From positions 96,001 through 160,000 of IMG/VR virus record IMGVR_UViG_3300033498_000048: a stretch of 64,000 nt of DNA, one strand, 5' to 3'. The translations under genes and the position numbers were made by a program. Shown here piece by piece: positions 20,593 through 52,670 of this stretch. How positions within the stretch are numbered: position 1 is the first letter of the stretch; every line of letters starts with the position of its first letter. A model generated the notes under the pieces. The model was given only the letters and a program-made list of their open reading frames with translations. It did no database searches and was not told the origin of the DNA. The stretch is from a virus (taxonomy: Duplodnaviria; Caudoviricetes).

Positions 20593-20621
20593 ATTATATA
20601 GGCTTAATGATTCAATGTCAA
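20593..20621 (-). promoter_or_regulatory. Sigma70-like early promoter abutting repeat cluster A
   Basis: Perfect TTGACA-17 bp-TATAAT. Confidence 0.8.
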
Positions 20622-20883
20622 ACAACAAGTTAGCACTTGCAACAATTAGGTAATTAACACTGTCCAAGTGCTAACTCGTTGGTTTAATTGATGATAGTTG
20701 GCTCATAATTAAATCAATAGGTTAGCACTTACATGGGAGTGCTAATTATATAACCGTTCTAAGTGCTAACCTATTGATTTAATTGAGAATGATTGAGAAT
20801 GATTATAGCCTAACAATATCAATGAGTTAGCACTTACAGGTTAGTATTAGTTATATAACTGTTCCAAGTGCTAACCTATTGAT
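20620..20883. repeat. Inverted-repeat element cluster A (3 copies)
   Basis: Copies at 20620-20685 (27-bp core), 20711-20780 (perfect 20-bp arms, 30-bp core) and 20818-20883 (30-bp core). Confidence 0.95.
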
Positions 20884-20982
20884 GTATAATAATTGACAAG
20901 AATGATAGTAGTGGAACAGTTGTTTTTGTGTGTTAGTCTTCTATTTGTTCCATTTTTAGTTTATTCAACCCATTAGTTTATT

Positions 20983-21372
20983 TTAACTGGAAGTCAACTT
21001 GACAAAAACAGAATCATATTCTTCTTTAAACATCGCAATTTTGTTTTTGATTAGAGTTATATCGTATTCCAATGATGTTATGTGCCTTGCCCTTAACTCT
21101 AGGTAATATAGCTTACATTCTTTTTCATCTGTAAACAAATTTAACTCAGCTCCACTTGTATTACCAAATAACTTTATTTCTTTTTTCGTTACATCTCCCT
21201 TTGAATTGATTACACGAAAACGACCATTATCTCCAACTTGCACGTTTGTTGGAATAACATTTCGTTGTGGATTCTCATTTCCAGTATATGTAAAGTAATA
21301 TGCACATACCCACAAACTCATACCACAAAATTCTTTACCAGTATAAGCATATTCATTAAACTCTAATTTCAT
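20983..21372 (-). CDS. Hypothetical protein
   Basis: Lies between repeat clusters A and B. Confidence 0.65.
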   Translation of the reverse strand: MKLEFNEYAYTGKEFCGMSLWVCAYYFTYTGNENPQRNVIPTNVQVGDNGRFRVINSKGDVTKKEIKLFGNTSGAELNLFTDEKECKLYYLELRARHITSLEYDITLIKNKIAMFKEEYDSVFVKLTSS

Positions 21373-21776
21373 TTAATATTCCCTGTGTATCCTAGTAATC
21401 CAAAGTCTAGGATTGTACTTAATAACAAATCACATTCACTATTGGACAACTTAATATAATGTGTTTTAAACTTTCTTGCAATTGCAACAACTTCTTTGTA
21501 TCGGGTTATCATATTTCTTTCAAGTTTTTTAAATTCGATTATATCGGAATATAAACCTGGATTAGGTTTATTATCCTTGTGTACCATGCAATATTTCATT
21601 ATCAATTTATTAACTGAAAATTTGGTAATTTCCATAGCTTTAGTTATATGCTTTGAATTAACCAACTTTACATCTAAGCAATTAGTGTAATTAGTCGATA
21701 AGCGATGTTTTAACTGTTGATACAACTTTAACCTATCAGCTAATGGCATATCAAGTAATTCATATTTTTTGTTCAT
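21369..21776 (-). CDS. Hypothetical protein
   Basis: ATGA overlap; lies downstream of the promoter at 21805-21833. Confidence 0.6.
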   Translation of the reverse strand: MNKKYELLDMPLADRLKLYQQLKHRLSTNYTNCLDVKLVNSKHITKAMEITKFSVNKLIMKYCMVHKDNKPNPGLYSDIIEFKKLERNMITRYKEVVAIARKFKTHYIKLSNSECDLLLSTILDFGLLGYTGNIK

Positions 21777-21804
21777 TATTTAACTCCAATGTTTTTGTTG
21801 GCGA

Positions 21805-21833
21805 ATTATATTCAGTATTCCAAACAATGTCAA
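21805..21833 (-). promoter_or_regulatory. Sigma70-like early promoter abutting repeat cluster B
   Basis: Perfect TTGACA-17 bp-TATAAT. Confidence 0.8.
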
Positions 21834-21853
21834 CGCAATATCGTTCAAACTAT

Positions 21854-22143
21854 AAATCAATGACTTAGCACTTGGAACAGTTATATAATTAAGACCAATC
21901 TGCAAATGCTAACTTGTTGATTCTAATAACATTCATCTAAACTCAATTAAATCAACAAGTTAGCATTTGGAACGGTTATATAATTAAGACCACGCTGTAA
22001 GTGCTAAGTCATTGATTCTTTATAATTGACAATGATTGATAGTGTATAGAATACATATTAACAGGTAAATACAAAATCAATAACTTAGCACTTGGAACTA
22101 TTAGGTAATTATAAGACCTGTCTAAGTGCTAAGTCATTGATTT
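21854..22143. repeat. Inverted-repeat element cluster B (3 copies)
   Basis: Copies at 21854-21922, 21949-22017 and 22074-22143, each with a 30-bp core beginning GGAAC. Confidence 0.95.
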
Positions 22144-22155
22144 TTGAATAGTGAT

Positions 22156-22485
22156 TCATCTAATATTTTCGTACCAGAATTTAACTCTAGGAGGTTCATC
22201 GAAACACCAAACAGATATTATTTCAGGCATATAGCAATATTCAGACTCAGCTTTACGCATAGTTTTTCCAGACTTTCTTGCTGTGTCAATTATCAATATT
22301 GGACTCAATTCTTTTGGTATTTGTGTTCCATACGGAATAAATGGAACACCTAATAAATATGATGAATATACAGCAGCTATAGCACCACTACGACCTGGAC
22401 CAGTAACACTATTAACTTTCTTTATATTAGACAACTTAGCCTTTAAAACCGTTTGAAATTCAACCTCTGTCACAATTCTACTCAT
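22156..22485 (-). CDS. Minimal phosphoribosyltransferase-like protein
   Basis: VTGPGRSG (PP-loop-like) and LIIDTARKSGKT (PRPP-binding loop-like). Confidence 0.6.
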   Translation of the reverse strand: MSRIVTEVEFQTVLKAKLSNIKKVNSVTGPGRSGAIAAVYSSYLLGVPFIPYGTQIPKELSPILIIDTARKSGKTMRKAESEYCYMPEIISVWCFDEPPRVKFWYENIR

Positions 22486-22502
22486 ATTTTAGCTTATCCT
22501 TA

Positions 22503-22572
22503 AAATCAATAGGTTAGCACTTGCAACGGTTATATAATTACTAACACGATGCAAGTGCTAACCTATTGATTT
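22503..22572. repeat. Inverted-repeat element C (1 copy)
   Basis: AAATCAATAGGTTAGCACTT-30 bp-AAGTGCTAACCTATTGATTT, with perfect 20-bp arms. Confidence 0.95.
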
Positions 22573-22654
22573 TTGTGTGTTAATAATTGACAACGATAAT
22601 AGATGGAACATCCATCTTAACTGGTACATAATTATTAACACATTGGGTTATAGT

Positions 22655-22942
22655 TCATAAGATAATTTGGTATTTCTTTATTTCCTCTCGATAATATTTA
22701 CACATTATCATACCAACATTTGGGTAATGTTCACTTTCAATGATACTCGTATCTAATGCTTGTTGGCAAAATACTATTTCACGTTTAGCTAACTCCAAAG
22801 CATATTCTAAATTTATGTCAGCTAATTTTAGTATAAGTTCGTCCGTGTTTTTAATGTTCCCAAGCTCTGGGTCTACAACTTTAAATGAACATTGTCCATT
22901 AGATGCTTGTTGGAAGTGGAAGTTCCAATCATTTGCGTTCAT
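22655..22942 (-). CDS. Hypothetical protein, tandem paralogue 1 (start at MNANDW)
   Basis: Closely similar to 23202..23513. The longer called start overlaps the promoter. Confidence 0.75.
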   Translation of the reverse strand: MNANDWNFHFQQASNGQCSFKVVDPELGNIKNTDELILKLADINLEYALELAKREIVFCQQALDTSIIESEHYPNVGMIMCKYYREEIKKYQIIL

Positions 22943-22970
22943 ACATACCTCGGTGATAATTAAAAGTGGT

Positions 22971-22999
22971 AATATACATAATATTTCAGCTATTGTCAA
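22971..22999 (-). promoter_or_regulatory. Sigma70-like promoter (duplicated with the cassette)
   Basis: TTGACA-17 bp-TATATT. Confidence 0.6.
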
Positions 23000-23005
23000 A
23001 TATAC

Positions 23006-23177
23006 AAATCAATGAGTTAGCATTTGCAGTGTGTTAATAATTATATAACTTCTGTAAATGCTAACTCATTGATTGTTAGTAGTTGACAATGGTAGTTCCA
23101 TGTACATCCACTTTAACGGGTTACACATGGAACTATTAGGTAATTAATAACACTATGCAAGTGCTAACCTGTTGTTT
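23006..23177. repeat. Inverted-repeat element cluster D (2 copies)
   Basis: Copies at 23006-23074 (30-bp core) and 23112-23177 (degenerate left arm, 30-bp core). Confidence 0.9.
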
Positions 23178-23201
23178 TGCTTATAATTGTATATTGACTG
23201 A

Positions 23202-23513
23202 TTATAGTCTAACTCGCACAATAAACACCCTTTTGAATTTTTGTATTTCACTAGAATAATATTCACACATTATTCTACTAATATATGGGAAGGGGTCTGT
23301 TTTCATTTCTTCCTCATAATAAGATAACCATTTTTCACAAAATACTATTTCACGTTTAGCTAACTCCAAAGCATATTTTAAATTTATTTCAGCCATCTTT
23401 AGTATAAGTTCATCTGTATTTTTAATATTACCGATTTCTGGTTGAATAACTTTAAATGTACATTGTCCATTAGATGCTTTTTGAAAATTATAGTTCCAAT
23501 CATTTGCGTTCAT
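23202..23513 (-). CDS. Hypothetical protein, tandem paralogue 2
   Basis: MNANDWNYNFQKASNGQCTFKV...YALELAKREIVFC. Confidence 0.75.
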   Translation of the reverse strand: MNANDWNYNFQKASNGQCTFKVIQPEIGNIKNTDELILKMAEINLKYALELAKREIVFCEKWLSYYEEEMKTDPFPYISRIMCEYYSSEIQKFKRVFIVRVRL

Positions 23514-23543
23514 ATTATAAATCCGTTAGTGATTAAAAGTGAC

Positions 23544-23572
23544 AATATACATAATATTGCATCTATTGTCAA
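23544..23572 (-). promoter_or_regulatory. Sigma70-like promoter (duplicated with the cassette)
   Basis: TTGACA-17 bp-TATATT. Confidence 0.6.
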
Positions 23573-23579
23573 CTACTAT

Positions 23580-23839
23580 AAATCAATACCTTAGCACTTG
23601 TACTGGTCTTATAATTACCTAATACACCCAAGTGCCAACTTATTGATTCTTAACAATCGGATACATGGAACGTTCAAATGCTAACCTAATGGTTCTTAAT
23701 GTTTATGTTATACAAATCAACAGGTTGGCATTTACAACTGGTACATAATTATAAGACCAGTACAAGTGCTAAGGTGTTGATAACTGACAATGGTAGTTTC
23801 CATGTTCCATTCAAAATATAACTCAATAACTTAGCACAT
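23580..23839. repeat. Inverted-repeat element cluster E (2 full copies plus partials)
   Basis: Full copies at 23580-23648 and 23714-23781 (30-bp cores); partial arms near 23665-23692 and 23823-23839. Confidence 0.9.
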
Positions 23840-23951
23840 GGAACAGATACACAATTAACTACATTATGCTGTTGATTTATGGTTGGACTGTAATTTAGCC
23901 ATTCCCAAATACTAAATATCATATACTTTAATTAACGTGGAGATAACACAA

Positions 23952-24767
23952 ATGTTGACATTTAATGATTTTAAAAATTCAACTCAAAGTCAAGATATAA
24001 TTTATAACGAAAACTACTGTGATTACTTAGATGCAATATCATTAATAGAATCATATTATTCAAATCAATTATCTGAAAATATTATCACGGAATTGCCTGA
24101 TAAATTGAAAGATAAATTTGATTTCATTAAATCTATTGCTGATGTGGCAAAGATGGACATTTCAGAACTAATATCTATAATTAAGTTTCCTAGTGTATTT
24201 GAGTTTTTTGATTCGATTAAATTTAACTTAGCTAAGTTTTATAATATATTAAAACAAGGCTATAAATCGTATATTGAATTGGAACATGAAGTTTCTAAGT
24301 TTGCAGCTAATCAAAAAATAATGAAGTGGACCACTGCAAACTTAGAACTATTAGATGATTATTTGATGAATAACAAAGCACTCCACAGAATTACTGGAGT
24401 GGCAGCATCTGGAATCTTATTGTTTATGTGGATGCACCAATCACACACTGGTAACATAGACCACGACTTTAATGCTGATGATATTGTCAATGCTATGAAG
24501 GGGGAATATGAATTAGCAGATTTATTTGGAGGACATGAGGGTGCGAAACGATTGATGTTATTTGCTGTTGGTATCACCGTCCATGTTACATTCCCTTGGC
24601 CCACACCTAGCGATGTAAGCCTTATCATTGGACTAATACGAAATTTGAGAAAAACTATGAAGGTTAGAATCGAAAATGAAAAGGCTAACGAACCACCTAA
24701 ATTAATACCACGACCACATAAGGGAACTACCAGTAAAAAAAGAACTACCGAATCTTTTATGTGGTGA
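23952..24767 (+). CDS. Orphan plus-strand protein, possibly late/virion-associated
   Basis: GGAG RBS precedes the ATG at 23952 (MLTFNDFK). A late-promoter-like CTAAATA lies at 23912-23918. Confidence 0.7.
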   Translation: MLTFNDFKNSTQSQDIIYNENYCDYLDAISLIESYYSNQLSENIITELPDKLKDKFDFIKSIADVAKMDISELISIIKFPSVFEFFDSIKFNLAKFYNILKQGYKSYIELEHEVSKFAANQKIMKWTTANLELLDDYLMNNKALHRITGVAASGILLFMWMHQSHTGNIDHDFNADDIVNAMKGEYELADLFGGHEGAKRLMLFAVGITVHVTFPWPTPSDVSLIIGLIRNLRKTMKVRIENEKANEPPKLIPRPHKGTTSKKRTTESFMW

Positions 24768-24773
24768 TTCCAA

Positions 24774-24840
24774 AAATCAATAAGTTAGCACTTGCTGGTT
24801 TGTATTAATTATAACACTGTCCAAGTGCTAACCTGTTGAA
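24774..24840. repeat. Inverted-repeat element F (1 copy, 29-bp core)
   Basis: AAATCAATAAGTTAGCACTT...AAGTGCTAACCTGTTGA, between convergent genes. Confidence 0.9.
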
Positions 24841-24847
24841 TTACTGA

Positions 24848-25201
24848 TTAGTTTAGTCCAGACGCATACAGTTCAGCAGCTTCTATAAATCCAAGCTCAA
24901 ATTGTATTAATTTTTTAGCCCACAATGGTGCATTCCATGCTGATAAGATGAAGTTTAATATAATGCTATCTATGTGTTTATGGGTAGGTTTTTCTCCAAA
25001 TTGTGTTGGTAAATAATAATCACCCATCATATCCATTGCTAACGCTTTACCAATTTCCTTACTGTACCTATCTTTTTTATTTGAAAAACTATAACCAAAT
25101 CTAATCACATATCTACCTTTTTTATTGGACGTTAATTCAGACGCTATTGTAATAACATTAGTGTGGATTAATCCAGTATTGCCGATGTATTTAAATCTCA
25201 T
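24848..25201 (-). CDS. Conserved phage hypothetical protein
   Basis: FGYSFSNKKDRYSKEIGKALA motif of a kind seen in myovirus hypotheticals. Confidence 0.65.
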   Translation of the reverse strand: MRFKYIGNTGLIHTNVITIASELTSNKKGRYVIRFGYSFSNKKDRYSKEIGKALAMDMMGDYYLPTQFGEKPTHKHIDSIILNFILSAWNAPLWAKKLIQFELGFIEAAELYASGLN

Positions 25202-25288
25202 GCTGTTTACTCAATTATTAAAAACTATATTGTACACAAGGACAGTTCAATAAGATGTTGACTGTAGAACTGTCCTTAAACAACCAAT

Positions 25289-25648
25289 TTACGATTTCAC
25301 TCGAACATTCATACAAGTTATACTTCCAGACTCGGAAAATATATTTTTACCAACATCACCTTTAACCTCAACTGAACCTGTAACAGTTGCAACATCACCT
25401 CCAACCGAACCAGTAACGACAACATTACCTGATTGAGTTCTAATAGTTTCAAGTGTTGGACTTGTGACATTGATTGTAATTGATGTGTTAGGTTTAAAGG
25501 CAGTGTGGATTTTACCATCAACTAAAACCTCATTATCTGTTACAAACACACGATTACCGTTAGTGACATTTACAATAGTGCTATTGTCTCCAAAATTAAT
25601 ACTTCCACCTGTTACATTACCTATAAAAGTTTGTTTCCGTTCTGACAT
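25289..25648 (-). CDS. Small beta-helix/beta-repeat protein
   Basis: Repeated VxGxVxGxVxxxxG pattern (SGNVVVTGSVGGDVATVTGSVEVKGDV). Confidence 0.65.
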   Translation of the reverse strand: MSERKQTFIGNVTGGSINFGDNSTIVNVTNGNRVFVTDNEVLVDGKIHTAFKPNTSITINVTSPTLETIRTQSGNVVVTGSVGGDVATVTGSVEVKGDVGKNIFSESGSITCMNVRVKS

Positions 25649-25671
25649 ATATTACCTACATTAAATTAATT

Positions 25672-25728
25672 AAATTAATAAGTTAGCACTTGAACGATTT
25701 GATAAAAATAATCTGTCACAAGTGCTAA
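25672..25728. repeat. Degenerate inverted-repeat element G
   Basis: AAGTTAGCACTT-28 bp-AAGTGCTAA. Confidence 0.7.
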
Positions 25729-25732
25729 TAAA

Positions 25733-27016
25733 TCACCTCTTAGCATCATATTCTGGATTAATGAACTTACATGATAAGTTATTTGTTTCCATCGTTCTAA
25801 CCACAATTCCTTCGATTATTTCACCATTTTTCTTGTGTTCATCAAACATCAACTGGACAGTATTACACAAGTCTTCATAACTATGTGGGGTAATTACCGT
25901 TGTTGGAACAACTGGTAGATTTAAGTCTTTAGCAACATTCCACAAATCGTAACCATTCAAACGAATAGCATTGGGACCAGATACATCATCCAAACCAAAC
26001 AATATCAATCCTTGTTCTTTTTTAGAATGTGGATTGTGTTTGTTTCCAGAACCTTTCAATCCCTTACCATAAATCTCAGCTCTAAATGCCAATTCCAAAT
26101 CATTATCTAAACAGTATTGATACCCCTTATCTAATAACCCAGATGATTTTGAAATATCAACCCATGAGTCCTTATAAGCTATTTCAATTGGAGTTAAATC
26201 ACTAACATTATCATTGGTTCTAAAATCTCCAGTTTCTTCGCACAACCATCCCCTAGTATTGTCAGCAAAATGCTTTCTATAGGGTTTAAACTCATTATCA
26301 ACATAATGGGAAACAACTGTGGGGTTTAATTTTTTCAAAAACATTCTGGAACACACAAAAGGCTTCAATTCACCGTTGATTTTTTTGAATGCAACTGTTA
26401 AAGATGAACCATCCACTTTCAAAGACAACCCCAATGGCTCTCCACGCTCAATAACCATTTTTATGTGATTGACGATGTTTTGATACATAATTTCATCTGT
26501 TTTGTACATCCAATATGGAAAATCACCTTGAATTAATCCATTAGATTGTGTTGAAGGTTCAGGCTCTTCATACTTCACAATTTCCAAGGCTTCAGTCAAG
26601 TTACAATCACCAATATTAATTCCCTTATTAATTAAATATGATTCAACTAATTGGAAAGATAATAAGATTCCAAAAGACCAAATCGGTTGAATATCATCCT
26701 CAAATGAAAATGTAAATTTAGACGATTTAATCCTATTGTTCGTTCCTAATCTAGTTCGTTTTGGTTCACCACCTGGAGCTATAAATTCACTAAATAACTC
26801 TGTGTTAGGAACACAATAATCTGGTTGAATGAAAATTGCCTTATCTCCAATTTCATATAATCCGATTTGTGCAATTAGATTAAATCCACAAGTTTCACCT
26901 GTTCGGTCAAATGTGAATCTAACAACTTCAATGTTAGTAGCTGCTTCGCCGTTTTTTTGAATTTTTAAATTTTGATTAATTGTAACCAGTTCTACTGGAT
27001 TAACTTCATTTGTCAT
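25733..27016 (-). CDS. RNA ligase, DRB0094-like (Rnl2/Rnl5 type)
   Basis: N-terminal YEIGDKAIFIQPD domain, motif I SLKVDGSS, AEIYGKG, EGIVVR and KFINPEY. Confidence 0.85.
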   Translation of the reverse strand: MTNEVNPVELVTINQNLKIQKNGEAATNIEVVRFTFDRTGETCGFNLIAQIGLYEIGDKAIFIQPDYCVPNTELFSEFIAPGGEPKRTRLGTNNRIKSSKFTFSFEDDIQPIWSFGILLSFQLVESYLINKGINIGDCNLTEALEIVKYEEPEPSTQSNGLIQGDFPYWMYKTDEIMYQNIVNHIKMVIERGEPLGLSLKVDGSSLTVAFKKINGELKPFVCSRMFLKKLNPTVVSHYVDNEFKPYRKHFADNTRGWLCEETGDFRTNDNVSDLTPIEIAYKDSWVDISKSSGLLDKGYQYCLDNDLELAFRAEIYGKGLKGSGNKHNPHSKKEQGLILFGLDDVSGPNAIRLNGYDLWNVAKDLNLPVVPTTVITPHSYEDLCNTVQLMFDEHKKNGEIIEGIVVRTMETNNLSCKFINPEYDAKR

Positions 27017-27019
27017 ATT

Positions 27020-27349
27020 TTATTCCTTAATGTGGTTTTGATACCAATCTTTATATTTTGTATATTGTGCTGTTGCATCTGAAAAATTGTAAATGTTACC
27101 TCCAATTTTAATATACTCAGCAAACTGGTAAATATTCATTTTTTCAACTGTTGGAAAAAATAATACTACTAATTTATTATCACGAATAAATACTCCAGAA
27201 ATATAATCTTTATTCACATTCAACAAGTCTTGTAATATACTTTCTTTTGAATCATATCTTCCAGTTCCTACATATGTCGTGAAATATTCATAACTACAGG
27301 GGGTTAGCATTGTGATTGTTCCTTTTAAATTTAGTGTTTTTATGTCCAA
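27020..27349 (-). CDS. Hypothetical protein
   Basis: Fits the minus-strand tiling. Confidence 0.5.
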   Translation of the reverse strand: MDIKTLNLKGTITMLTPCSYEYFTTYVGTGRYDSKESILQDLLNVNKDYISGVFIRDNKLVVLFFPTVEKMNIYQFAEYIKIGGNIYNFSDATAQYTKYKDWYQNHIKE

Positions 27350-27639
27350 CTAATCTCAAATGAGTTAATATCAAGCTCTTGTCCATAGGTTGGGGTATAT
27401 GATATTTTAAAATTTGAGCATATTAAAAATCTAGCGATATGCGTTTGCTGTTCACTAGAAATTTGAGCATCGAAGCGTAATGTCATACAAATTTCACCAC
27501 GCGAAGCACTTTCCGTAAATAACAATATAAGATATTCGATATATTTTTTGCTCTCATCTGTTAATAAGTTTAATAAAGCTTCCATTGATATTTTTTTAAT
27601 ATCGTTGGCATTTAATGTACTAAATTGTTGTACTACCAT
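27340..27639 (-). CDS. Hypothetical protein
   Basis: Fits the minus-strand tiling. Confidence 0.5.
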   Translation of the reverse strand: MVVQQFSTLNANDIKKISMEALLNLLTDESKKYIEYLILLFTESASRGEICMTLRFDAQISSEQQTHIARFLICSNFKISYTPTYGQELDINSFEISWT

Positions 27640-28185: not shown

Positions 28186-28188
28186 ATC

Positions 28189-28299: not shown

Positions 28300-28304
28300 A
28301 ATCC

Positions 28305-30952: not shown

Positions 30953-31114
30953 AATCAATGAGTTAGCACTTGCATCGTGTTAGTAATTATATAACCGTTC
31001 CAAGTGCTATCTTATTGATTTAATTGAGTATAAATGTATTAGTAATATCAATGAGTTAGCATTTATAACGGTTATATAATTACTAACACGATGCAAGTGC
31101 TAACTCATTGATAT
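30953..31114. repeat. Inverted-repeat element cluster H (2 copies, opposite core orientation)
   Basis: Copies at 30953-31021 and 31045-31114. Their 30-bp cores are near-identical reverse complements. Confidence 0.95.
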
Positions 31115-31127: not shown

Positions 31128-31155
31128 AAAAAGCCCATTAAAGGGCTTTTTTTTT
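31128..31155. terminator. Rho-independent terminator (probably bidirectional)
   Basis: AAAAAGCCC-ATTAAA-GGGCTTTTTTTTT, immediately after the nrdJ-31154 transcript. Confidence 0.8.
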
Positions 31156-44671: not shown

Positions 44672-44683
44672 TACATAAAAAGA

Positions 44684-45079: not shown

Positions 45080-45849
45080 TATAAATTTACTCCACCCAAT
45101 TCAAGTTTCAATGACAACTTACTTTGTTGCCTGTTGTAAGGTTTACTCATTTCATAGTACCCTGATGTATCATAATCACATAATTTCAAATTGAAGTTTG
45201 GAAGCTCAAGTCTATTGATGTGAAATGAATCAGTGTAGTATTTGGCATATAATAACTGAAAATCAGCGATTGTCAATTTCTTATTTTTAATACCACTTAA
45301 AAACAATTCATCCCTAAACATGATTTTCAAGTAATCAAAAAAACAATGTTTTCTATTCCTATCAACTCTTTTTGGAGTAGGTGGATTATCAATTGACATC
45401 GTGAATACATCAATGCTATTGATAATATCTTTAATACCAAGTTCTAATAGACTAATTTTATGAATCACGGATTGTGACCAACCATATTCTGAGTGTGAAC
45501 GTAACCAATCTAGTATGTCAAAATTATTTACGTCAAATTCACGGTCTAACATTTTATTGGAATACACCCATGTGCCGTTATTGTATATTCCACGAAATTG
45601 GTCATATTCAATCAGGTGTAATACTCCATCTGGAACCACACAGTAACCTTGTTCAATTAGCAATCCAATACCATGATTAAAACTTTTAATTTGTTTAACT
45701 TTAACTCCAGTAAAGTTATATTCAGCATACACATCATCATCAACAATTCTCAACCAATATACTTTACTATATGGATGTAAGAATTGTTCAATAGACATAA
45801 CTGGCAGTCCAACCATCTTCTTAATAATTGGAATTTGAAATTTTTTCAC
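45079..45849 (-). CDS. Hypothetical protein
   Basis: 256-aa ORF with coupled start/stop codons. Confidence 0.65.
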   Translation of the reverse strand: MKKFQIPIIKKMVGLPVMSIEQFLHPYSKVYWLRIVDDDVYAEYNFTGVKVKQIKSFNHGIGLLIEQGYCVVPDGVLHLIEYDQFRGIYNNGTWVYSNKMLDREFDVNNFDILDWLRSHSEYGWSQSVIHKISLLELGIKDIINSIDVFTMSIDNPPTPKRVDRNRKHCFFDYLKIMFRDELFLSGIKNKKLTIADFQLLYAKYYTDSFHINRLELPNFNLKLCDYDTSGYYEMSKPYNRQQSKLSLKLELGGVNL

Positions 45850-46139
45850 TATACCTCCATTTTATACAACCAATCAACAGGAATATTAGCATTAATGTCG
45901 TAACAACAGCCTTCAAACTGAAATTCAACGACATCGGTATAATCTCGTACAATTTTAGTTCCAGCAACAGTAACAATTTTTTCAAACTCGCCATCCTCTG
46001 GAGTTTCAACCACAATTTTTATCTTATCTCCTTTTTTTATGGAAGTTGCTTTTTTGTAACCTTTTCTTCTACTGATTTTGCTTCCACTCTTAACTTCAAT
46101 AACATTTTCATACAATATGGCTGAACTTGAATGCGACAT
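45849..46139 (-). CDS. Small SH3/KOW-like hypothetical protein
   Basis: SIKKGDKIKIVV...VTVAG; lies downstream of a promoter. Confidence 0.55.
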   Translation of the reverse strand: MSHSSSAILYENVIEVKSGSKISRRKGYKKATSIKKGDKIKIVVETPEDGEFEKIVTVAGTKIVRDYTDVVEFQFEGCCYDINANIPVDWLYKMEV

Positions 46140-46169
46140 GATTATTTACCCCTTGTTTGAATTTTTTAC

Positions 46170-46198
46170 ATTATAGTTATTTGAAATTAAGATGTCAA
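46170..46198 (-). promoter_or_regulatory. Sigma70-like early promoter next to repeat cluster I
   Basis: Perfect TTGACA-17 bp-TATAAT. Confidence 0.8.
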
Positions 46199-46238
46199 CT
46201 ATTAATTTGTAATAAAAATACTAGCGACTGTCCACCAA

Positions 46239-46791
46239 GAATCAATGAGTTAGCACTTACAGGTTGGTGTTAGTTATATAACTGTTCCAAGTGCTAACTC
46301 ATTGATTCGTATAGTGTAATTAATTGTTATTAACTATCAATAGGTTAGCACTTACAGACATTAAGTAATTATAGGGACGCTTCAAGAGTGTATCATTCAT
46401 TGTCAATTATTAAAATCAATGAGTTAGCACTTGCACTGGTCTTATAATTAACTAACTGTTCCAAGTGCTAACCACTTGTTTAATATACATAAAGTTAATT
46501 AGTATAACTATCAATAGGTTAGCACTTATAGACTGGTATTAGTTATATAACTGTTGCAAGTGCTAACCTATTGATAGTTGGTTGTCCAAACCATTGAGGT
46601 GTAGTTAAAAATTGGAACAAATATGTAACTAATTGTGTTGAATAGCTAAAATCAATGAGTTAGCACTTACAGCGTGGTATTAATTACTTAATTGTTCCAA
46701 GTGCTAACCTATTGATTTAATTGAGAATGGTACAAGGTAATAATATCAACGACTTAGCACTTGGACGGTGTTATTAATTATCCAAGTGCTA
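46239..46791. repeat. Inverted-repeat element cluster I (6 copies)
   Basis: Copies at 46239-46308, 46335-46400 (degenerate right arm), 46413-46481, 46506-46579 (perfect 22-bp arms), 46649-46718 and 46743-46791 (21-bp core, truncated). Confidence 0.95.
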
Positions 46792-46824
46792 TTTTTATGA
46801 GTGGAACATTTCCACAATTGAATA

Positions 46825-48138
46825 CTAAAGACTAATCGAACTAACTTCGTTTAAATACATTTTATTAGCTGTTGTATTCAATAACGATTTTAGTTCTTTT
46901 TCTTTGTTTTTTAATGAGGTGTTTAAATCTGCTATTTTATCTTTTGTTAGGTTGTAAATAGGCATTGATAACAACTTATCTACATTAATGAATCCATTGT
47001 TCGATAATAACTCTACCAATTGTTTTTTAGACAATTCTTTAAATGTTGTTGCATTTTCAATGTAATAATTGATAAATCGTATTTTTTCTGAAATATCTGC
47101 TATTTCAGCAGTAACTATATCAATTAACTTTAAACGTCTCAATTCATAAATGTGAAGTCGATACTTAACAAAATAATCAACAATTTCTGCTGCCGAATTA
47201 AATACTTGAAGTTTAGAATTAACATTCCACAATGTTAAGTTTTCAGTGTCTTTTGATACCAACTTAAATGTATTATAAATGGTATCAATGTCCATATTAG
47301 TAACATTCCTAGGGCATTTAATTTCAATATTAAATCCATCTTCTGAAGAATCATCATCATAATCTTTGATTACATCTGTTTCCTTCAGTTTATTAAGGAT
47401 TGTTTTAATATCATCAAGGAACATTCCAATTGGCAATTCGGTAATACTAATTGTCGTTGAATTAACAATTTCCAATTTACCTTTGAAAATCCATTGGTTT
47501 TGATTTTCACCTTTTAATATTTGTCCAATGAAATTCTTATACCAAGGAATCAACTCAATTCTAGGTGTACCATTTAATATAGCAATAATATCATTTTTTA
47601 CATCAATTGGATTATATGCTAACACTTTACTGGCATATCCAGTACCAATTCCATGTGTTCCATTAATTAATACAACTGGTAATATTGGAACATAGAACTT
47701 TGGCTCAATTTGTTGGTCATCTTCATATAGATGTTCCAATATCACATCATCTGTACTATTAAATAATGTATTAAATGATGGAGATAACTTTGTGAAAATA
47801 TACCTATGTGCTGCTGGAATTGGTGATAATCTTGAACCAAATTGCCCTATAGGTTCGAGTAAATTGATATTGTTTGAACCAGCAAAGTTTTGAGCTAAGT
47901 TACAAATAACACCACCGATTCCTGCTTCTCCGTGGTGGTAAGCTGTTTCAGCAGCAACGGATGAACACAATTGTGCTACTTTGATTTCTGTGTTGGTTCT
48001 TTTTTTACAAGTGTGGACTATTTTACGTTGTGTTATTTTTAATCCATCTATGACATTTGCAATACTCCGTTGTGAATCATATATCGTGTATGGTTTATGT
48101 TGTGTTTCAAAAAACTCATTAATTGTTATCTTTTGCAT
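46825..48138 (-). CDS. 52: DNA topoisomerase II medium subunit (T4 gp52, GyrA-like)
   Basis: RSIANVIDGLK..QRK, YHHGE, GQFGSR and AAHRY (catalytic Tyr), LPVVLING..GIGTG. Confidence 0.95.
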   Translation of the reverse strand: MQKITINEFFETQHKPYTIYDSQRSIANVIDGLKITQRKIVHTCKKRTNTEIKVAQLCSSVAAETAYHHGEAGIGGVICNLAQNFAGSNNINLLEPIGQFGSRLSPIPAAHRYIFTKLSPSFNTLFNSTDDVILEHLYEDDQQIEPKFYVPILPVVLINGTHGIGTGYASKVLAYNPIDVKNDIIAILNGTPRIELIPWYKNFIGQILKGENQNQWIFKGKLEIVNSTTISITELPIGMFLDDIKTILNKLKETDVIKDYDDDSSEDGFNIEIKCPRNVTNMDIDTIYNTFKLVSKDTENLTLWNVNSKLQVFNSAAEIVDYFVKYRLHIYELRRLKLIDIVTAEIADISEKIRFINYYIENATTFKELSKKQLVELLSNNGFINVDKLLSMPIYNLTKDKIADLNTSLKNKEKELKSLLNTTANKMYLNEVSSISL

Positions 48139-48152
48139 TTGCTTATTCCCAG

Positions 48153-50042
48153 TTATACCAACTCACTAATACCCATCCAATCTTTTCTTAGATTAGTCAT
48201 TCCCTTTTCTTTTGAAAACATTAACTTGAATGTTCCAGGAACATCGCTATCAATTCCAGTTGATACTACCATTAAATTATTATCTAATGACGTTTCATCA
48301 AAATATTCTTTCCATTCTTTTGATGTTGATGTTCCAAGTCCTTTATAATATTTAAATGTAAATCCTGTATTAGATTCTTTCCATTCATTAAATTTGTCCA
48401 GTGAATAGAAGTTAATCGACTTCTTTTTATGTTGTACCTTAACAATTGGAGTATTTAAAATACAAATGATTCCCAATTCAAATAGTTCTGGAAAAAACTT
48501 GTGAAACATATTTAATAACAATGACCTGATTTGATAACCATCAAGGTCTTGGTCCGTGGTTATGATGATTTTTCCAAACCTAATATCATTTACAGATTCA
48601 ACTTTAACTCCGAGTTGTAATCCTAATATAGTCAATATGTTTTTAAATTCAGAGTTGTTTATAACGTCTTTAATGTCCATATCAAACACATTAATTGGTT
48701 TACCTTTTAATGGAAATGCTCCATGTAATTTAGTATTCCTACCACTTAATATTCCGCTAAGAGCCGAATCACCCTCAACAAGAAATAATGAGGTTTCCAT
48801 TCTATTTTTTGATGTTGCATCGTGAAACTTTGGAACATTCTTTGGGTCATTTTTGTTAATTAGTTTACTATGTTTCCGCAATTCAGCAGCAATTGTAGCC
48901 TGTTCTTTAGCCTTTACCCAATCTAATATAGATTGAATAGCATCTAATTCCAATACTTTTTTTATGAACTTATCATCACAGACCCACTCAGTTTGATATG
49001 CCTTGGGTTCTGTAATTAATTGTTCCTTAGTTTGGCTAGAATATCTAGGTTTAGCAATACTAGCAACAATGAATAATTGTAAATGGTTTTTAATATCTGC
49101 TGGCTTTACATCAATCTTGTGTTTTTTACTAAAATGGAATTTGAGCTTTGAAACTATTTGATTGGTTACATAATCAATATGTGTTCCCCCAACAAATGTT
49201 TCTGTTCCGTTGACAAACGAAACGTGGTCAAAGCCATCGGTTGCAGATGTAACAGCAATTTTCCAAGTATCGGTTTCATCAATTGCATAATTATCACAAT
49301 ACATGGAAACATAGTTTTTATATGAATCAATTTTTATCAATTCACCGTTTAAATGTATCTTTAATTTTGGATTACATCCAGCAACATCATAAACACGTTT
49401 AACTAACCTATCGTAATTATCTTGGTCTAATGTTTCTAAATTAAAGCGTGGATAGTCTGGAATCCATGATATTTCAGTAAACCGTTTTTTTGATTTGGTT
49501 ATTACTGGCTCTGTTTTTAACCTTGAATTGTTACTGTGTGTCTGGTTAAATGAGTTAGTTCCATCTGAAGTTATAACATTAAACTCAGTTGCAAATATTG
49601 CAGTTAATGATGCACCCTCACCATTTTGACCTGCACTAAAACCATCATCCGAATCATCATCAAAATTGCTTCCAGATTTCAATTCAAATACCATTTCTGG
49701 AATCCATTGGTTGTAGTCTTTGTGTTTGACAACTGTAATTCCACCATTATCAAACACTGTAATTTTACCAGTGCCTTTATCAATAGTCACTTTGATTGTA
49801 TCTAAATGTGACCCATCTGGACGTTTAGAAAAGTCGATTGAGTTTGAAATAACTTCATCAAATACTTTTAATAGTCCAGGACAAAAAGTCAGCTCTTTCT
49901 TCACAAAATTCTTTTCAATTTGGTTGTGAATAAATGTACTTGCTGTATGTGGATTAATAGACCCGATATATCTTCCTGGTCTGTGTAAAACATGGTCTAT
50001 ATCATCCAATTTTTTAAATCGTTCTTCAATCGTTTTTAACAT
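48153..50042 (-). CDS. 39: DNA topoisomerase II large subunit (fused T4 gp39+gp60, GyrB-like)
   Basis: HVLHRPGRYIGS, EVISNSID, GQNGEGA, EGDSA, PLKGK, TDQDLDG and YYKGLGT. Confidence 0.95.
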   Translation of the reverse strand: MLKTIEERFKKLDDIDHVLHRPGRYIGSINPHTASTFIHNQIEKNFVKKELTFCPGLLKVFDEVISNSIDFSKRPDGSHLDTIKVTIDKGTGKITVFDNGGITVVKHKDYNQWIPEMVFELKSGSNFDDDSDDGFSAGQNGEGASLTAIFATEFNVITSDGTNSFNQTHSNNSRLKTEPVITKSKKRFTEISWIPDYPRFNLETLDQDNYDRLVKRVYDVAGCNPKLKIHLNGELIKIDSYKNYVSMYCDNYAIDETDTWKIAVTSATDGFDHVSFVNGTETFVGGTHIDYVTNQIVSKLKFHFSKKHKIDVKPADIKNHLQLFIVASIAKPRYSSQTKEQLITEPKAYQTEWVCDDKFIKKVLELDAIQSILDWVKAKEQATIAAELRKHSKLINKNDPKNVPKFHDATSKNRMETSLFLVEGDSALSGILSGRNTKLHGAFPLKGKPINVFDMDIKDVINNSEFKNILTILGLQLGVKVESVNDIRFGKIIITTDQDLDGYQIRSLLLNMFHKFFPELFELGIICILNTPIVKVQHKKKSINFYSLDKFNEWKESNTGFTFKYYKGLGTSTSKEWKEYFDETSLDNNLMVVSTGIDSDVPGTFKLMFSKEKGMTNLRKDWMGISELV

Positions 50043-50265
50043 AATGCTCCGTTAAATTGTAAATGTTAATATCAACAGACGTAAATTCACGTTCCTTTTC
50101 AATAATCTTATTATCCTTGCGTTTTATATTTCTTCTTATTTTTTCACTAAAGACCTTCCGTTGTTTACCCCAATTCATTGGTACTTTACCGACCCACTCA
50201 CTAGGTATTTCCACCAGTTTTCCACGCCTTAATCTATAAAAGATTCCATCTTTTTCAATTCTCAT
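50026..50265 (-). CDS. Small basic protein, tandem paralogue A
   Basis: GIFYRLRRGKLVEIPSEWVGKV. Confidence 0.7.
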   Translation of the reverse strand: MRIEKDGIFYRLRRGKLVEIPSEWVGKVPMNWGKQRKVFSEKIRRNIKRKDNKIIEKEREFTSVDINIYNLTEHYVKND

Positions 50266-50483
50266 ATTAAGTCTGGACCACTAAAAGTATTTAATGAATG
50301 TATTTCATATAAATTAACACCACCTCGGTCTATAGTTCTTCCACGTTTGGGTTTTTTGCTTTGTCTGTTCCTCATAGTACAAGGAGTTGTTACTTTACCG
50401 ACCCATTCGCTTGGAATTTCAACAAGTTTACCACGTCTTAGTCTATAATAGATTCCATATATTTCTTTACGCATAATAATCAC
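50262..50483 (-). CDS. Small basic protein, tandem paralogue B
   Basis: GIYYRLRRGKLVEIPSEWVGKV. Confidence 0.7.
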   Translation of the reverse strand: MIIMRKEIYGIYYRLRRGKLVEIPSEWVGKVTTPCTMRNRQSKKPKRGRTIDRGGVNLYEIHSLNTFSGPDLI

Positions 50484-50497
50484 CTATAATTAAATTG

Positions 50498-51676
50498 TCA
50501 AATAAATTCACCTGGATGTGAATACAATACCTTATCTTTAGGGTTCGCTGATGTTGTAACCTCGGCAAATCTAACCCCTTTATTATTCTTTAGGGTTAAT
50601 ATATATTCAAAATTGGAAATTAAATCATAACTACCCTTTATTCCAATTGAGCTTGCAGTTTTTGAGTGACATGATAGTATGAAATTTATACCAACTTTCC
50701 TACCTTCTGTCAATAGTGGAAGTAAAAAGTCAGATAGGTTTTGAATATTTTTAGATACTGTTGTCCACTCGTCAGAAAAATAATAGACTTGTGGAAATTC
50801 ACCTTCAATAACAGCACCACTTCCTAATTGTTCATATCTGTGGTCCATTAAATGTAATGAGTTTTCTAGCTCTTCAGCAATAGCAGGGTAATTCCTACCT
50901 TGTCCTACAACACGCACACGTTCATCCCATTTCCCTGGGGTAGTGTGTGAATCCATAACTACTACTAAATGTCCCTGCCCTAATTTCTGTTTAATTAAGT
51001 GTTGGAATAGTGTTGTTTTACCCGAACCCTGTGAACCAATTATCAATATACGTTTAGAGTCAATTAATTCCTCTAATAATCCAGTCAAGTATCCATTATC
51101 ATCTTTTTTATTGATGCTTATAACCCCAACGTATGGATTTTGATTGGAATTAATTGATTCGTATATTACATCTTCTTCATCGTCATCGTTGTTTCCACAA
51201 TCTAAAACAGTATCATGTTCTTCAACACAATAATCGTCTGGATTTACATCCGTATCACATTCTTCAACGCAATAATCATCTGGACTTACACTTGTTTCGT
51301 GTTGTAATACAGCAATAGATGTCAATTGATATGGAGTGCATAGTTTCTCATTTCTAACTCTACTAATTGTATTGATGTGTATTTCTTTATTTAATTCCAA
51401 TTCATGTAGTTTTTGATACCGATGTAAATCCGTTAGGTTTTTTAAGTATCTAACTAAAAAAAAACAACATGGAACTAATACAAATAGTGCAGATATTAAG
51501 ATTATGATTCCAAGTAACCCGAACACCCCAGAAGTGGCAGTTACATAACTGTCAAGATAATTGTGTGGATATAATGATACAGATATATAATACCCCTTTA
51601 TTGTGATTGCAATTATCGCTGTAACCACGACAACTGCAACATATGATACAATTGTTAATAAATTGTTATTTCCCAT
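50498..51676 (-). CDS. Membrane-anchored FtsK/SpoIIIE-HerA-type ATPase
   Basis: Two N-terminal TM helices, Walker A GSQGSGKT, Walker B YYFSDE and arginine-finger segment EGRKVGI. Confidence 0.75.
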   Translation of the reverse strand: MGNNNLLTIVSYVAVVVVTAIIAITIKGYYISVSLYPHNYLDSYVTATSGVFGLLGIIILISALFVLVPCCFFLVRYLKNLTDLHRYQKLHELELNKEIHINTISRVRNEKLCTPYQLTSIAVLQHETSVSPDDYCVEECDTDVNPDDYCVEEHDTVLDCGNNDDDEEDVIYESINSNQNPYVGVISINKKDDNGYLTGLLEELIDSKRILIIGSQGSGKTTLFQHLIKQKLGQGHLVVVMDSHTTPGKWDERVRVVGQGRNYPAIAEELENSLHLMDHRYEQLGSGAVIEGEFPQVYYFSDEWTTVSKNIQNLSDFLLPLLTEGRKVGINFILSCHSKTASSIGIKGSYDLISNFEYILTLKNNKGVRFAEVTTSANPKDKVLYSHPGEFI

Positions 51677-51748
51677 GAAAGTCCCTTGACATTTGTTAAT
51701 TCTATTCTACATATACTATACAAATTCAATTATGTCAAGGGACTTTCA
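51676..51748. promoter_or_regulatory. Perfect 17-bp inverted repeat overlapping the RBS/start of the FtsK-like gene
   Basis: TGAAAGTCCCTTGACAT (51676-51692) and ATGTCAAGGGACTTTCA (51732-51748). Confidence 0.6.
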
Positions 51749-51751
51749 ATA

Positions 51752-52087
51752 TCATTTCATAAAACGTTTAATTGCACTTAGTTTGCTCCGTATTAATTTA
51801 TTAATGTGACGATTGATTATTGTTTTTGTGTCTAACAATTTGCGAATTTCGTCTATATCAGTTTTAATTGGTTTCCATTCATTTTCTAATCCATATTCGT
51901 AACAATCATACACCTCAACGAAATATAACATTCCACCATATTCATACAAAACAAATGCCATTTCATAATCACAAATTGCAACAAATACTTGATTAATCAA
52001 TAAGCATGGTTCACAAAACTCAATCGACAAATCAACAGCATTTTTACATTTCCAAGATATGAGTGGAGATATTGTAACATTCTTCAT
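51752..52087 (-). CDS. Hypothetical protein
   Basis: DYE....VL....G..Y.V....C..YGLEN.W pattern. Confidence 0.55.
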   Translation of the reverse strand: MKNVTISPLISWKCKNAVDLSIEFCEPCLLINQVFVAICDYEMAFVLYEYGGMLYFVEVYDCYEYGLENEWKPIKTDIDEIRKLLDTKTIINRHINKLIRSKLSAIKRFMK

Positions 52088-52090
52088 ATT

Positions 52091-52363
52091 TTATGCTACC
52101 ATTGGACTATCAACTGTTTCGTCCATGTAAGTTAAAAAGAAACTAACCGAATATTCATTTGCAGCAATATGATGTATGTTAATAGTATTTCCAAGTGACC
52201 GTACAAAGTTTAGCAATAATTGCATACTATGTTTAATGGTCACTTTATTTGGATAATCAATTACTACAATTTTTCTACACAATTCATATGCAGAATCATC
52301 AATTTCAATTGTTCCATGTTTACTCCAAAAAGCATTTAATTCTTTGTTTATAGTTTCACTCAT
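52091..52363 (-). CDS. Hypothetical protein (start moved to MSETINK)
   Basis: RBS AGAGG precedes the ATG at 52363. The longer call runs into the repeat. Confidence 0.55.
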   Translation of the reverse strand: MSETINKELNAFWSKHGTIEIDDSAYELCRKIVVIDYPNKVTIKHSMQLLLNFVRSLGNTINIHHIAANEYSVSFFLTYMDETVDSPMVA

Positions 52364-52387
52364 TTTGTTTCCTCTAGTATTATTTTG

Positions 52388-52670
52388 AATCAATGACTTA
52401 GCACTTGGAACAGTTATATAATTAATACCACGATGCAAGTGCTAACCTATTGATTTTGTTATATTGTAATCATTCTCAATTAAATCAATAGGTTAGCATT
52501 TATGAGTATTGGTTAATTAGTAAAGTGTTCCAAGTGCTAACTCATTGATTTATAGTAATTGACGATAATAGCTACTATATCAACAGGTTAGCACTTACAA
52601 CTGTTATATAACTAAGACCAATCTGCAAGTGCTATCTTGTTGATTCTTAATAATTGACAAGATAGCACTT
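52388..52670. repeat. Inverted-repeat element cluster J (3 copies plus a half-site)
   Basis: Copies at 52388-52455, 52482-52551 and 52577-52645 (all with 30-bp cores), plus an arm fragment at 52654-52670. Confidence 0.95.

What the first reader, a model, noticed from the sequence alone, without database searches (positions are those of the whole stretch)
20620..52670. Dispersed family of ~25 intergenic 70-bp inverted-repeat elements with a fixed 30-bp core
Seen in sequence: about 25 copies in 10 loci (20.6, 21.9, 22.5, 23.0, 23.6, 24.8, 25.7, 31.0, 46.2 and 52.4 kb) of ATCAATRRGTTAGCACTT-core-AAGTGCTAACYYATTGAT. The arms are 18-22 bp and often perfect. In 19 hand-counted copies the core is exactly 30 bp (others are 21-29 bp). 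The core is asymmetric, with consensus GGAACRGTTATATAATTAxxACCAxxxTGY, and occurs in both orientations. Linkers between copies vary in length. Cores are mosaics of a few sub-variants (TTAGGTAATTA vs TTATATAATTA; TAAGACCAGTAC), which suggests recombination or gene conversion among copies. No copy lies inside a convincing gene. Inference: strict length conservation with tolerated substitutions points to a protein-bound site with fixed geometry, such as a recombination site, replication origin (like baculovirus hr palindromes) or genome-organising site. It fits a terminator poorly (30-nt loop, no U tract). The nearest known analogue is the PeSL cassettes of RB49/phi1 phages, but those are promoter-terminator units with a different architecture. 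No cognate recombinase is visible in this window.
Basis: partly seen in the sequence, partly recalled or inferred. Interest (0 to 1): 0.88.

Follow-up and report, generated by a model that had tools for sequence, protein, structure and literature searches.

The report
Dispersed 66-bp palindromic phage repeat family
An uncultured 306-kb T4-like jumbo phage carries about 100 copies of a strictly built 66-bp intergenic repeat that looks like a protein-binding DNA site, not an RNA hairpin, promoter or classic terminator; its function is still unknown and no published description was found.

Summary
A profile search finds 25 copies (21 full, 4 partial) at the ten stated loci. The whole 305,782-bp phage genome holds about 100 to 118 copies in 40 intergenic arrays of 1 to 6.

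Architecture: ATCAAT-N3-TTAGCACTT, a 30-bp core, then the inverse arm. The core is exactly 30 bp in 80 of 94 copies.

New results:
- Partner arms do not co-vary (185 mismatches against 189±8 for random pairs). There is no G·U bias on the sense strand (45:39).
- The core is polar, but its polarity is random relative to gene direction (24:19).
- All 67 orientable cores differ in sequence, yet fixed positions and length are kept.
- Linkers cluster at 27-30 bp, giving a period of about 95 bp.
- Each arm fits the IHF consensus WATCAANNNNTTR, with the variation confined to the Ns.
- The genome has no tyrosine or serine recombinase, Y1 transposase, HU/IHF or ParB gene.
- A relative (about 71-74% amino-acid identity) has 10 copies with the same inner arm and a 29-30-bp core. 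Some sit at the same loci, some are gained or lost, and one 1.6-kb indel is bounded by arrays.

Best reading (0.4): a double-stranded DNA site recognised by a protein, which also acts as a PeSL-like recombination linker. Other first-stage notes on this same genome flagged this family; none came from other DNA.

The parts
20621..20883 (.). Array of 3 elements: 20621-20683 (27-bp core), 20713-20778 and 20818-20883. It lies between the stop of the 129-aa ORF (20983) and the promoter of the deformylase gene.
20593..20621 (-). Consensus sigma70-type promoter (TTGACA-17-TATAAT, 12 of 12). Its -35 box abuts the outer end of the last arm. It drives the deformylase gene 20563-20168.
21856..22141 (.). 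Array of 3 elements: 21856-21921, 21951-22016 and 22076-22141.
21805..21833 (-). Consensus sigma70-type promoter (12 of 12), downstream of the array in the direction of transcription.
22505..22570 (.). Single element upstream of the 109-aa gene (22485-22156). The relative's contig L190 has an element at the orthologous place.
23008..23177 (.). One full element (23008-23073) and one with a degenerate arm (23115-23177).
23582..23868 (.). Elements 23582-23647 and 23716-23781, a lone arm at 23676-23693 and a partial copy at 23823-23868.
24776..24840 (.). Single element with a 29-bp core, in a convergent gap.
25673..25737 (.). Degenerate element directly after the stop of the 427-aa RNA-ligase-like gene.
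30954..31112 (.). Array of 2 elements: 30954-31019 and 31047-31112.
31128..31151 (.). Classic bidirectional intrinsic terminator (9-bp stem, T and A runs). It lies between the upstream gene and the array. It is one of only 3 such intergenic sites in the genome.
46241..46801 (.). Array after the stop of the topoisomerase II medium-subunit gene (46825). Full elements at 46241-46306, 46415-46480, 46510-46575 and 46651-46716; a partial copy at 46335-46386; a copy with a 21-bp core at 46745-46801. The relative's contig L005 has 2 elements at the same place.
46170..46198 (-). Sigma70-type promoter (TTGACA-17-TATAAT), read by eye, between the array and the next start codon at 46138.
52389..52670 (.). 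Array of 3 elements (52389-52454, 52484-52549, 52579-52644) plus a lone arm at 52659-52670. It sits at the divergent junction before the gp5-like baseplate gene (52941). The relative's contig L196 has 1 element there.

Best explanation
The element is a cis-acting site read as double-stranded DNA by one or more sequence-specific proteins.

Shown:
- Each arm is an independently conserved bipartite half-site: AAGTGCTAA, 3-4 free bases, then ATTGAT, with block centres about one helical turn apart.
- The two arms are held exactly 30 bp apart around a polar AT-rich core.
- Neighbouring units are phased at about 95 bp, roughly nine helical turns.

Inferred: a bound protein complex, possibly helped by host IHF because each arm fits WATCAANNNNTTR, forms a fixed-geometry nucleoprotein unit in the gaps between transcription units. 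There it would act as a boundary or architectural element.

A side effect of roughly 100 near-identical 18-bp patches is that they serve as linkers for homologous recombination. This shuffles small gene cassettes, as PeSL motifs do in other T4-type phages. Which protein binds, and what binding achieves, is not shown.
For: 1. Sequence is conserved, not pairing. The arm blocks are nearly invariant in 160 arms, while 3-4 positions between them vary. Partner arms are no more alike than random arms: 185 against 189±8 mismatches, and the variable tetranucleotide is identical in 17 of 80 against 12±3 expected.
2. There is no G·U over A·C bias on the sense strand (45:39, p=0.59).
3. Nothing tested is oriented relative to transcription. 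Core polarity is 24 same to 19 opposite. T-rich outer flanks are equal on both sides at 4.1 and 4.0 per 8 nt, against 2.8 background.
4. All 67 orientable cores are different sequences, but length (30 bp in 80 of 94) and fixed positions are kept. That argues against a recent copy burst or homogenisation.
5. Linkers cluster at 27-30 bp in 30 of 51 pairs. Most differ in sequence within an array.
6. 140 of 188 arms match WATCAANNNNTTR, and the arm's variable positions are the Ns. The consensus itself is from my own knowledge.
7. A relative with about 71-74% amino-acid identity keeps TTAGCACTT, a 29-30-bp core and AAGTGCTAA in 10 copies, two of them at orthologous loci, while the surrounding intergenic DNA is unalignable.
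8. Recombination-linker role: the relative lacks window 20621-22141 (array, two ORFan genes, array) between two orthologous genes. Array linkers at seven or more loci carry a truncated promoter -35 half.
Against: - No binding protein is identified. The genome has no HU/IHF, ParB or MotA-type gene, and no recombinase or transposase of the families tested.
- The IHF register is not kept in the relative's arms, so IHF cannot be the family's conserved reader.
- Degenerate and truncated copies exist, as in decaying selfish repeats.
- Position-specific conservation is also expected if a mobilising enzyme has to recognise the element.
- As RNA the arms would still fold stably (-20 to -43 kcal/mol). 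Classic terminators are very rare in this genome, which leaves room for an RNA-level role.
- Association with promoters is no stronger than sharing large intergenic gaps would give: 12 of 38 strong promoters, against 34 of 133 gaps of 100 bp or more holding an array.
Confidence: 0.4

Rival explanations
1. RNA-level element. The transcribed palindrome forms a long hairpin that acts as a bidirectional transcription terminator or attenuator, an RNase III processing site, or a 3' stabiliser of early mRNAs. This is the role of the stem-loop in PeSL cassettes and of the T7 RNase III sites.
For: - Predicted hairpins are very stable (-20 to -43 kcal/mol, z -3.4 to -12.5).
- Arrays begin 0-30 bp after stop codons and lie before the next promoter.
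- Outer flanks are T-rich on both sides.
- Only 3 classic intrinsic terminators were found in intergenic DNA of the 306-kb genome.
- In a more distant relative, a classic terminator occupies the spot after the topoisomerase gene where this phage has an array.
Against: - No covariation between partner arms and no G·U bias.
- The loop is 30 nt, the stem base is AU-rich, and there is no directional U tract.
- Tandem arrays of up to 6 units at a fixed 95-bp period are not expected of terminators.
- One array sits just downstream of a classic terminator.
- Sequence-specific conservation of both stem strands is unnecessary for pairing.
- No Rfam family matches.
Confidence: 0.2
2. Selfish palindromic repeat of the MITE or REPIN type. 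It would be spread and maintained by an unrecognised phage enzyme or a host enzyme, and conserved positions would reflect what that enzyme must recognise, not a benefit to the phage.
For: - It has terminal inverted repeats, is strictly intergenic, and occurs in clusters with truncated or degenerate copies.
- Presence differs between relatives. The relative has an element after the gp5 gene that this phage lacks, and two arrays here are absent from the relative.
- One array shows a recent exact tandem duplication.
- The family is absent from relatives with 59-65% identity.
Against: - No Y1/HUH transposase and no tyrosine or serine recombinase in the genome.
- No target-site duplication beyond the self-complementary AT that is part of the arm.
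- No two orientable cores are identical, so there is no recent burst or master copy.
- Copies are kept at orthologous loci in a relative whose synonymous sites should be saturated.
- The pattern is not found in bacterial genomes beyond chance single hits.
Confidence: 0.2
3. An hr-like enhancer or replication-origin array, as in baculovirus homologous regions. Phased palindromic units would bind a dimeric activator or initiator and stimulate neighbouring promoters or start replication.
For: The layout is the same in outline: units of about 66-70 bp with an imperfect palindrome, 1-6 per locus, 40 dispersed loci, orientation-independent and phased. Some arrays directly abut strong early promoters and two abut late TATAAATA promoters.
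Against: Purely analogical. No initiator or activator was identified. Most strong promoters (26 of 38) have no array within 150 bp upstream, and many arrays have no strong promoter. GC skew follows gene strand only.
Confidence: 0.1
4. A promoter, with the arm as an upstream box and TATAAT at core positions 11-16, or a site for a site-specific recombinase of the Xer or integron attC type.
For: About 30 of 67 cores carry TATAAT or TATAAC at positions 11-16, and both core types of the relative have TATAAT or TACAAT there. The 12-6-12 core resembles recombinase core sites in outline.
Against: - Polarity is random relative to genes, and the promoter-proximal unit points the wrong way in 8 of 14 cases read by eye.
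- The arm's -35-like hexamer lies only 13 bp upstream of that TATAAT.
- The best-conserved core bases are not the key -11A and -7T.
- Real consensus promoters lie outside the elements.
- No integrase or recombinase gene was found.
Confidence: 0.05

Closest known systems
PeSL cassettes (promoter-early stem-loop) of T4-type phages RB49/phi1, PST/T4 and nt-1/KVP40 (PMC2839356, PMC4122927)
   Same: Both are repeated motifs in the gaps between small, mostly ORFan genes of a T4-like phage. Both are placed between the upstream stop codon and a strong sigma70-type promoter. Both are associated with an indel between relatives, and degraded half-copies with only a -35 box are seen here too.
   Different: In PeSLs the conserved unit is the promoter plus a short G-run/C-run stem-loop that was shown to terminate transcription. 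Here the conserved unit is a 66-bp palindrome with an exact 30-bp core and no integral promoter. It stands in phased tandem arrays, its arms show no pairing selection, and most strong promoters lack it.
Bacterial REP/BIME and REPIN elements, including the IHF-binding BIME-1/RIP type (own knowledge)
   Same: Both are short intergenic imperfect palindromes in clusters with alternating orientation, and both are linked to an IHF consensus.
   Different: No RAYT (Y1 transposase) gene is present. The IHF-like boxes lie in the arms, not between two REPs. The core length is fixed. The host is a phage genome.
Baculovirus homologous regions (hr) (own knowledge)
   Same: Both are dispersed loci of 1-8 tandem units of about 70 bp, each unit with an imperfect palindrome, and both work regardless of orientation.
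   Different: There is no sequence relationship. The hr-binding protein IE-1 has no counterpart identified here. Enhancer or origin activity is untested.
MITEs such as Neisseria Correia elements (own knowledge)
   Same: Both have terminal inverted repeats, an intergenic location, an IHF site and many copies.
   Different: Here there is no target duplication, no partner transposase and no identical copies. The element is 66 bp long with a conserved internal geometry.

Membership tests
PeSL (T4-type phage promoter-early stem-loop cassette) | A strong sigma70-like early promoter is an integral part of every repeat unit. | tested here: not met
   Consensus promoters lie outside the elements. Only 12 of 38 strong intergenic promoters are within 150 bp downstream of an array, and units repeat in tandem without promoters.
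PeSL (T4-type phage promoter-early stem-loop cassette) | A short GC-run stem-loop just upstream of the promoter that acts as a terminator. | tested here: not met
   The arms are 18 bp and AT-rich at the base, the core is 30 nt, and there is no covariation. Terminator activity itself cannot be tested here.
PeSL (T4-type phage promoter-early stem-loop cassette) | Sits between small non-essential or ORFan genes and marks indels between related phages. | tested here: met
   All ten flanking ORFs tested have no Pfam match. A 1.6-kb indel against relative L190 is bounded by arrays. Gain or loss is seen after the gp5 gene.
PeSL (T4-type phage promoter-early stem-loop cassette) | Recombination between copies gives excised mini-circles. 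| not testable with these tools
   Only assembled contigs of the source run were available. The joints seen are repeat cross-mapping.
REP/REPIN with RAYT | A cognate Y1 (HUH) REP-associated transposase gene in the genome. | tested here: not met
   PF01797 gives no match in six frames of the whole genome.
MITE | Terminal inverted repeats plus a target-site duplication. | tested here: inconclusive
   Inverted repeats are present. The only flanking direct repeat is the self-complementary AT that is part of the arm, and none of 2-8 bp is found at other boundaries.
MITE | A related autonomous element or transposase. | tested here: not met
   No PF00589, PF00239 or PF01797 match in the genome. DDE families were not searched.
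Intrinsic (Rho-independent) terminator | A GC-rich stem, a 3-8 nt loop and a downstream U tract on the sense strand. | tested here: not met
   The terminator scan picks none of the full elements. The loop is 30 nt. T-richness is symmetric, not directional.
IHF binding site | Match to WATCAANNNNTTR. | tested here: met
   140 of 188 arms match exactly. Genome-wide there are 221 matches against about 54 expected from composition. The arm's variable positions are the Ns. The register is not kept in the relative. Binding itself is untested.
Integron attC or Xer dif-type recombination site | A cognate tyrosine recombinase, with the conserved GTTRRRY/RYYYAAC boxes or the 11-6-11 dif consensus. | tested here: not met
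   No PF00589 match. The arm reads GTTAGCA, which fails the RRRY positions by eye. A host Xer enzyme cannot be excluded.
Any Rfam RNA family | Reaches a family's gathering score. | tested here: not met
   No match in the 64-kb window.
Baculovirus hr-type enhancer or origin | Binding of a dimeric viral activator, with enhancer or origin activity. | not testable with these tools
   Only the layout can be compared.

The most novel reading that the evidence does not exclude
About 100 phased, two-fold sites form a genome-wide nucleoprotein scaffold in a jumbo T4-like phage. An unknown phage protein, with host IHF bending each arm, would wrap the 66-bp units into fixed-geometry complexes. These would insulate early transcription units or organise replication or condensation of the 306-kb chromosome. 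That would be a prokaryotic-virus counterpart of baculovirus hr regions, and a new class of phage cis-regulatory architecture.
Probability: 0.2. Interest if true: 0.85.

Novelty: new variant of a known kind. Interest (0 to 1): 0.62.

Why it matters
Repeat families of this size and regularity are rare in phage genomes, and this one has no published description that I could find.

If a protein reads these sites, the phage uses about 100 fixed-geometry complexes to partition or regulate its early genes. That would be a new layer of jumbo-phage genome organisation, and a handle for finding the binding protein.

Even if the elements are only linkers, they extend the PeSL idea of cassette shuffling at conserved intergenic motifs to a very different motif in a distant, uncultured T4-like lineage.

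They also explain why short-read assemblies of these phages break at these loci.

Tried and rejected
- Promoter reading. Rejected on random polarity, a 13-bp spacing to the arm hexamer, and conservation at the wrong -10 positions.
- MotA-box reading of AAGTGCTAA. The spacing to any -10 is wrong and there is no credible MotA gene.
- Classic terminator. Rejected.
- Hairpin selection. Three tests were negative.
- Target-site duplication. None found.
- Recombinase, transposase, HU/IHF and ParB genes in the genome. None found.
- Enrichment at strand switches or next to short genes. Not significant with my crude gene calls.
- Specific coupling to strong early or late promoters. Weak.
- Exact and loosened pattern scans of IMG/VR, metagenome contigs and 185,579 prokaryote genomes. 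Only single chance hits, including unrelated Acidobacteria repeats.
- Megablast against known phages. No match.
- Read laying. Only contigs were available, and the joints reflect paralogous copies, not inversions or circles.
- L189. It proved to be the same genome, so it is uninformative.
- Use of arm stop codons by real genes. Only 6 doubtful cases in 188 arms.
- Literature searches for the motif and for similar phage repeats. Nothing found.

Full report
**Source and setting**

The window is bases 96,001-160,000 of a 305,782-bp IMG/VR virus record with terminal repeats, rated 100% complete. GC content is about 31%. It carries T4-type genes: topoisomerase II subunits, a gp5 OB-domain hub, ribonucleotide reductase and ThyX. 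It also has 21 T4-type late promoters (TATAAATA) placed in front of genes.

The nearest named phages share only about 48% amino-acid identity in topoisomerase II, and megablast finds nothing. The source run is a microbial mat metagenome. Two freshwater runs hold a relative whose longest laid contigs are roughly 90% identical.

- The arm pattern hits 41 times against 0.04 expected.
- A profile built from the genome's own copies finds 25 elements in the window, 21 near full length, at the ten stated loci.
- Genome-wide, a strict arm-pair search finds 94 two-armed units in 40 arrays of 1-6. The profile finds about 118 including partial copies.
- The core is exactly 30 bp in 80 of 94 units.
- All units are intergenic.

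**Anatomy**

Read outward from the core, each arm is AAGTGCTAA (near invariant in 160 arms), then 3-4 variable bases, then ATTGAT and a T or A. So each arm is a bipartite half-site with block centres about 10.5 bp apart.

The core has fixed bases at positions 3, 8-10, 13-15 and 17-18, with TAAYTA at its centre. The two halves of a core are anti-correlated. Position 10 is the same in both halves in 7 of 80 cores against 37 expected. The core is therefore polar: arm, 6 nt, GTTA, 2 nt, TAATTA, 1 nt, TAAC, 7 nt, arm.

All 67 orientable cores are different sequences. Left and right sub-variants are only weakly linked.

In arrays, linkers are 27-30 bp in 30 of 51 adjacent pairs, which gives a 93-96-bp period. 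They are 81% A+T and mostly differ within an array. A few linker types recur between loci, one of which is the -35 half of an early promoter.

**DNA site or RNA hairpin**

- Partner arms have 185 mismatches in total against 189±8 for shuffled partners. The variable tetranucleotide is identical in 17 of 80 against 12±3 expected. Only 11 of 80 have perfect 18-bp arms.
- On the sense strand, transition mismatches give G·U 45 times and A·C 39 times (p=0.59).
- Nothing tested is oriented with transcription. Core polarity is 24 same to 19 opposite. Outer flanks are equally T-rich on both sides.

As RNA the units would still fold strongly, so a hairpin is not excluded. But what is conserved is sequence, not pairing.

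**Context**

The usual order is: stop codon, 0-30 bp, array, often a consensus sigma70 promoter (TTGACA-17-TATAAT), Shine-Dalgarno sequence, start codon. This is the place of the stem-loop in PeSL cassettes (PMC2839356, PMC4122927).

The coupling is loose. 12 of 38 strong promoters have an array within 150 bp upstream, while 34 of 133 gaps of 100 bp or more hold an array. One array follows a classic terminator. Such terminators are otherwise very rare: 3 intergenic sites in the genome by a strict scan.

**IHF lead**

Read inward, the arm is W-ATCAA-NNNN-TT-R, which is the integration host factor consensus (own knowledge). 140 of 188 arms match exactly. There are 221 matches genome-wide against about 54 expected from composition. 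The arm's variable bases are exactly the Ns.

The phage has no HU/IHF gene, so a host factor would be needed. The relative's arms do not keep this register. IHF can therefore only be an accessory in this phage, not the family's conserved reader.

**Relatives**

Contigs of one related phage carry 10 elements. Its topoisomerase subunit is 71% identical, its deformylase 73% and its gp5 homologue 74%. The contigs are L005/L006, L190 and L196/L197. All elements have TTAGCACTT and AAGTGCTAA, and cores of 29-30 bp in seven of them.

- Two loci are orthologous to arrays here: after the topoisomerase gene and before the 109-aa gene. A third, before the gp5 gene, also carries an element.
- One locus, after the gp5 gene, has an element only in the relative.
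- The relative lacks window 20621-22141 (array, two ORFan genes, array) between orthologous genes.
- By my reading of these ten copies, the relative has two sub-families, each with its own arm class and core type.

Relatives at 59-65% identity have no element. Pattern scans of IMG/VR, metagenome contigs and prokaryote genomes gave chance hits only. Rfam and the literature gave nothing.

**Enzymes**

Six-frame searches of the whole genome find no tyrosine recombinase, serine recombinase, Y1/HUH transposase, ParB or credible MotA. No target duplication was seen.

**Conclusion**

The best-supported reading, at confidence 0.4, is a protein-read double-stranded DNA site of fixed geometry. Its many copies also serve as recombination linkers for cassette shuffling.

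The rivals are:
- an RNA hairpin acting as terminator or processing site (0.2);
- a selfish REPIN- or MITE-like repeat (0.2);
- an hr-like enhancer or origin (0.1);
- a promoter or recombinase site (0.05).

The family is not a PeSL by its defining features, but it works in the same genomic niche.

Other first-stage notes on this same genome had flagged the family, the IHF match, the 95-bp phasing and the promoter proximity. I re-tested those points. The first three hold, and the promoter link is weaker than was stated.

Noticed in passing
all arms; e.g. window 20718-20720, 20823-20825, 21861-21863: Read inward, the 'variable' triplet at arm positions 6-8 is a stop codon in 124 of 160 arms (TGA 65, TAG 31, TAA 28). 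TGG occurs twice against 19.5 expected (p about 1e-9). With the fixed TAG at positions 11-13 and the TAA at the core centre, every unit closes all three frames from both sides. Real genes almost never end on these stops (6 doubtful cases). Unexplained.
   Followed up: partly
whole genome G000; window 31128-31151: Classic GC-rich hairpin plus T-run terminators are very scarce. A strict scan finds 3 intergenic sites in 306 kb, one of them next to the 31.0-kb array.
   Followed up: partly
G000:C1 linkers at 11280, 13621, 37796, 57095, 86473, 179666 and 184796: A recurrent about 30-bp linker holds the upstream half of an early promoter (AT-rich stretch, TTGACA, part of the spacer). It is cut off by the next element's arm, like the 'half PeSLs' described for T4-type phages.
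   Followed up: partly
G000:C1:67872-68125: Two neighbouring units with identical cores and identical 28-bp linkers, which indicates a recent exact tandem duplication inside one array.
   Followed up: no
window 23080-23135 and 23785-23845: A second short motif, GTTCCATGT ... ACATGGAAC followed by TACCATTGTCA, recurs beside degenerate elements. GGAAC is also the usual start of the core.
   Followed up: no
L005:2858-2880, L190:160-178, L196:2330-2348: The related phage has a second intergenic repeat of its own (CCGCGATAGCGTAACGATT-like) in both orientations near its elements.
   Followed up: no
window 20983-21776: Two ORFan genes (129 and 135 aa) bounded by arrays are absent from the related phage, where the 109-aa gene is followed directly by the deformylase gene.
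   Followed up: yes
whole genome G000: 21 T4-type late promoters (TATAAATA, 5-80 bp before a start codon) and 38 strong intergenic sigma70-type promoters. This indicates T4-like early and late transcription without a detectable MotA.
   Followed up: partly
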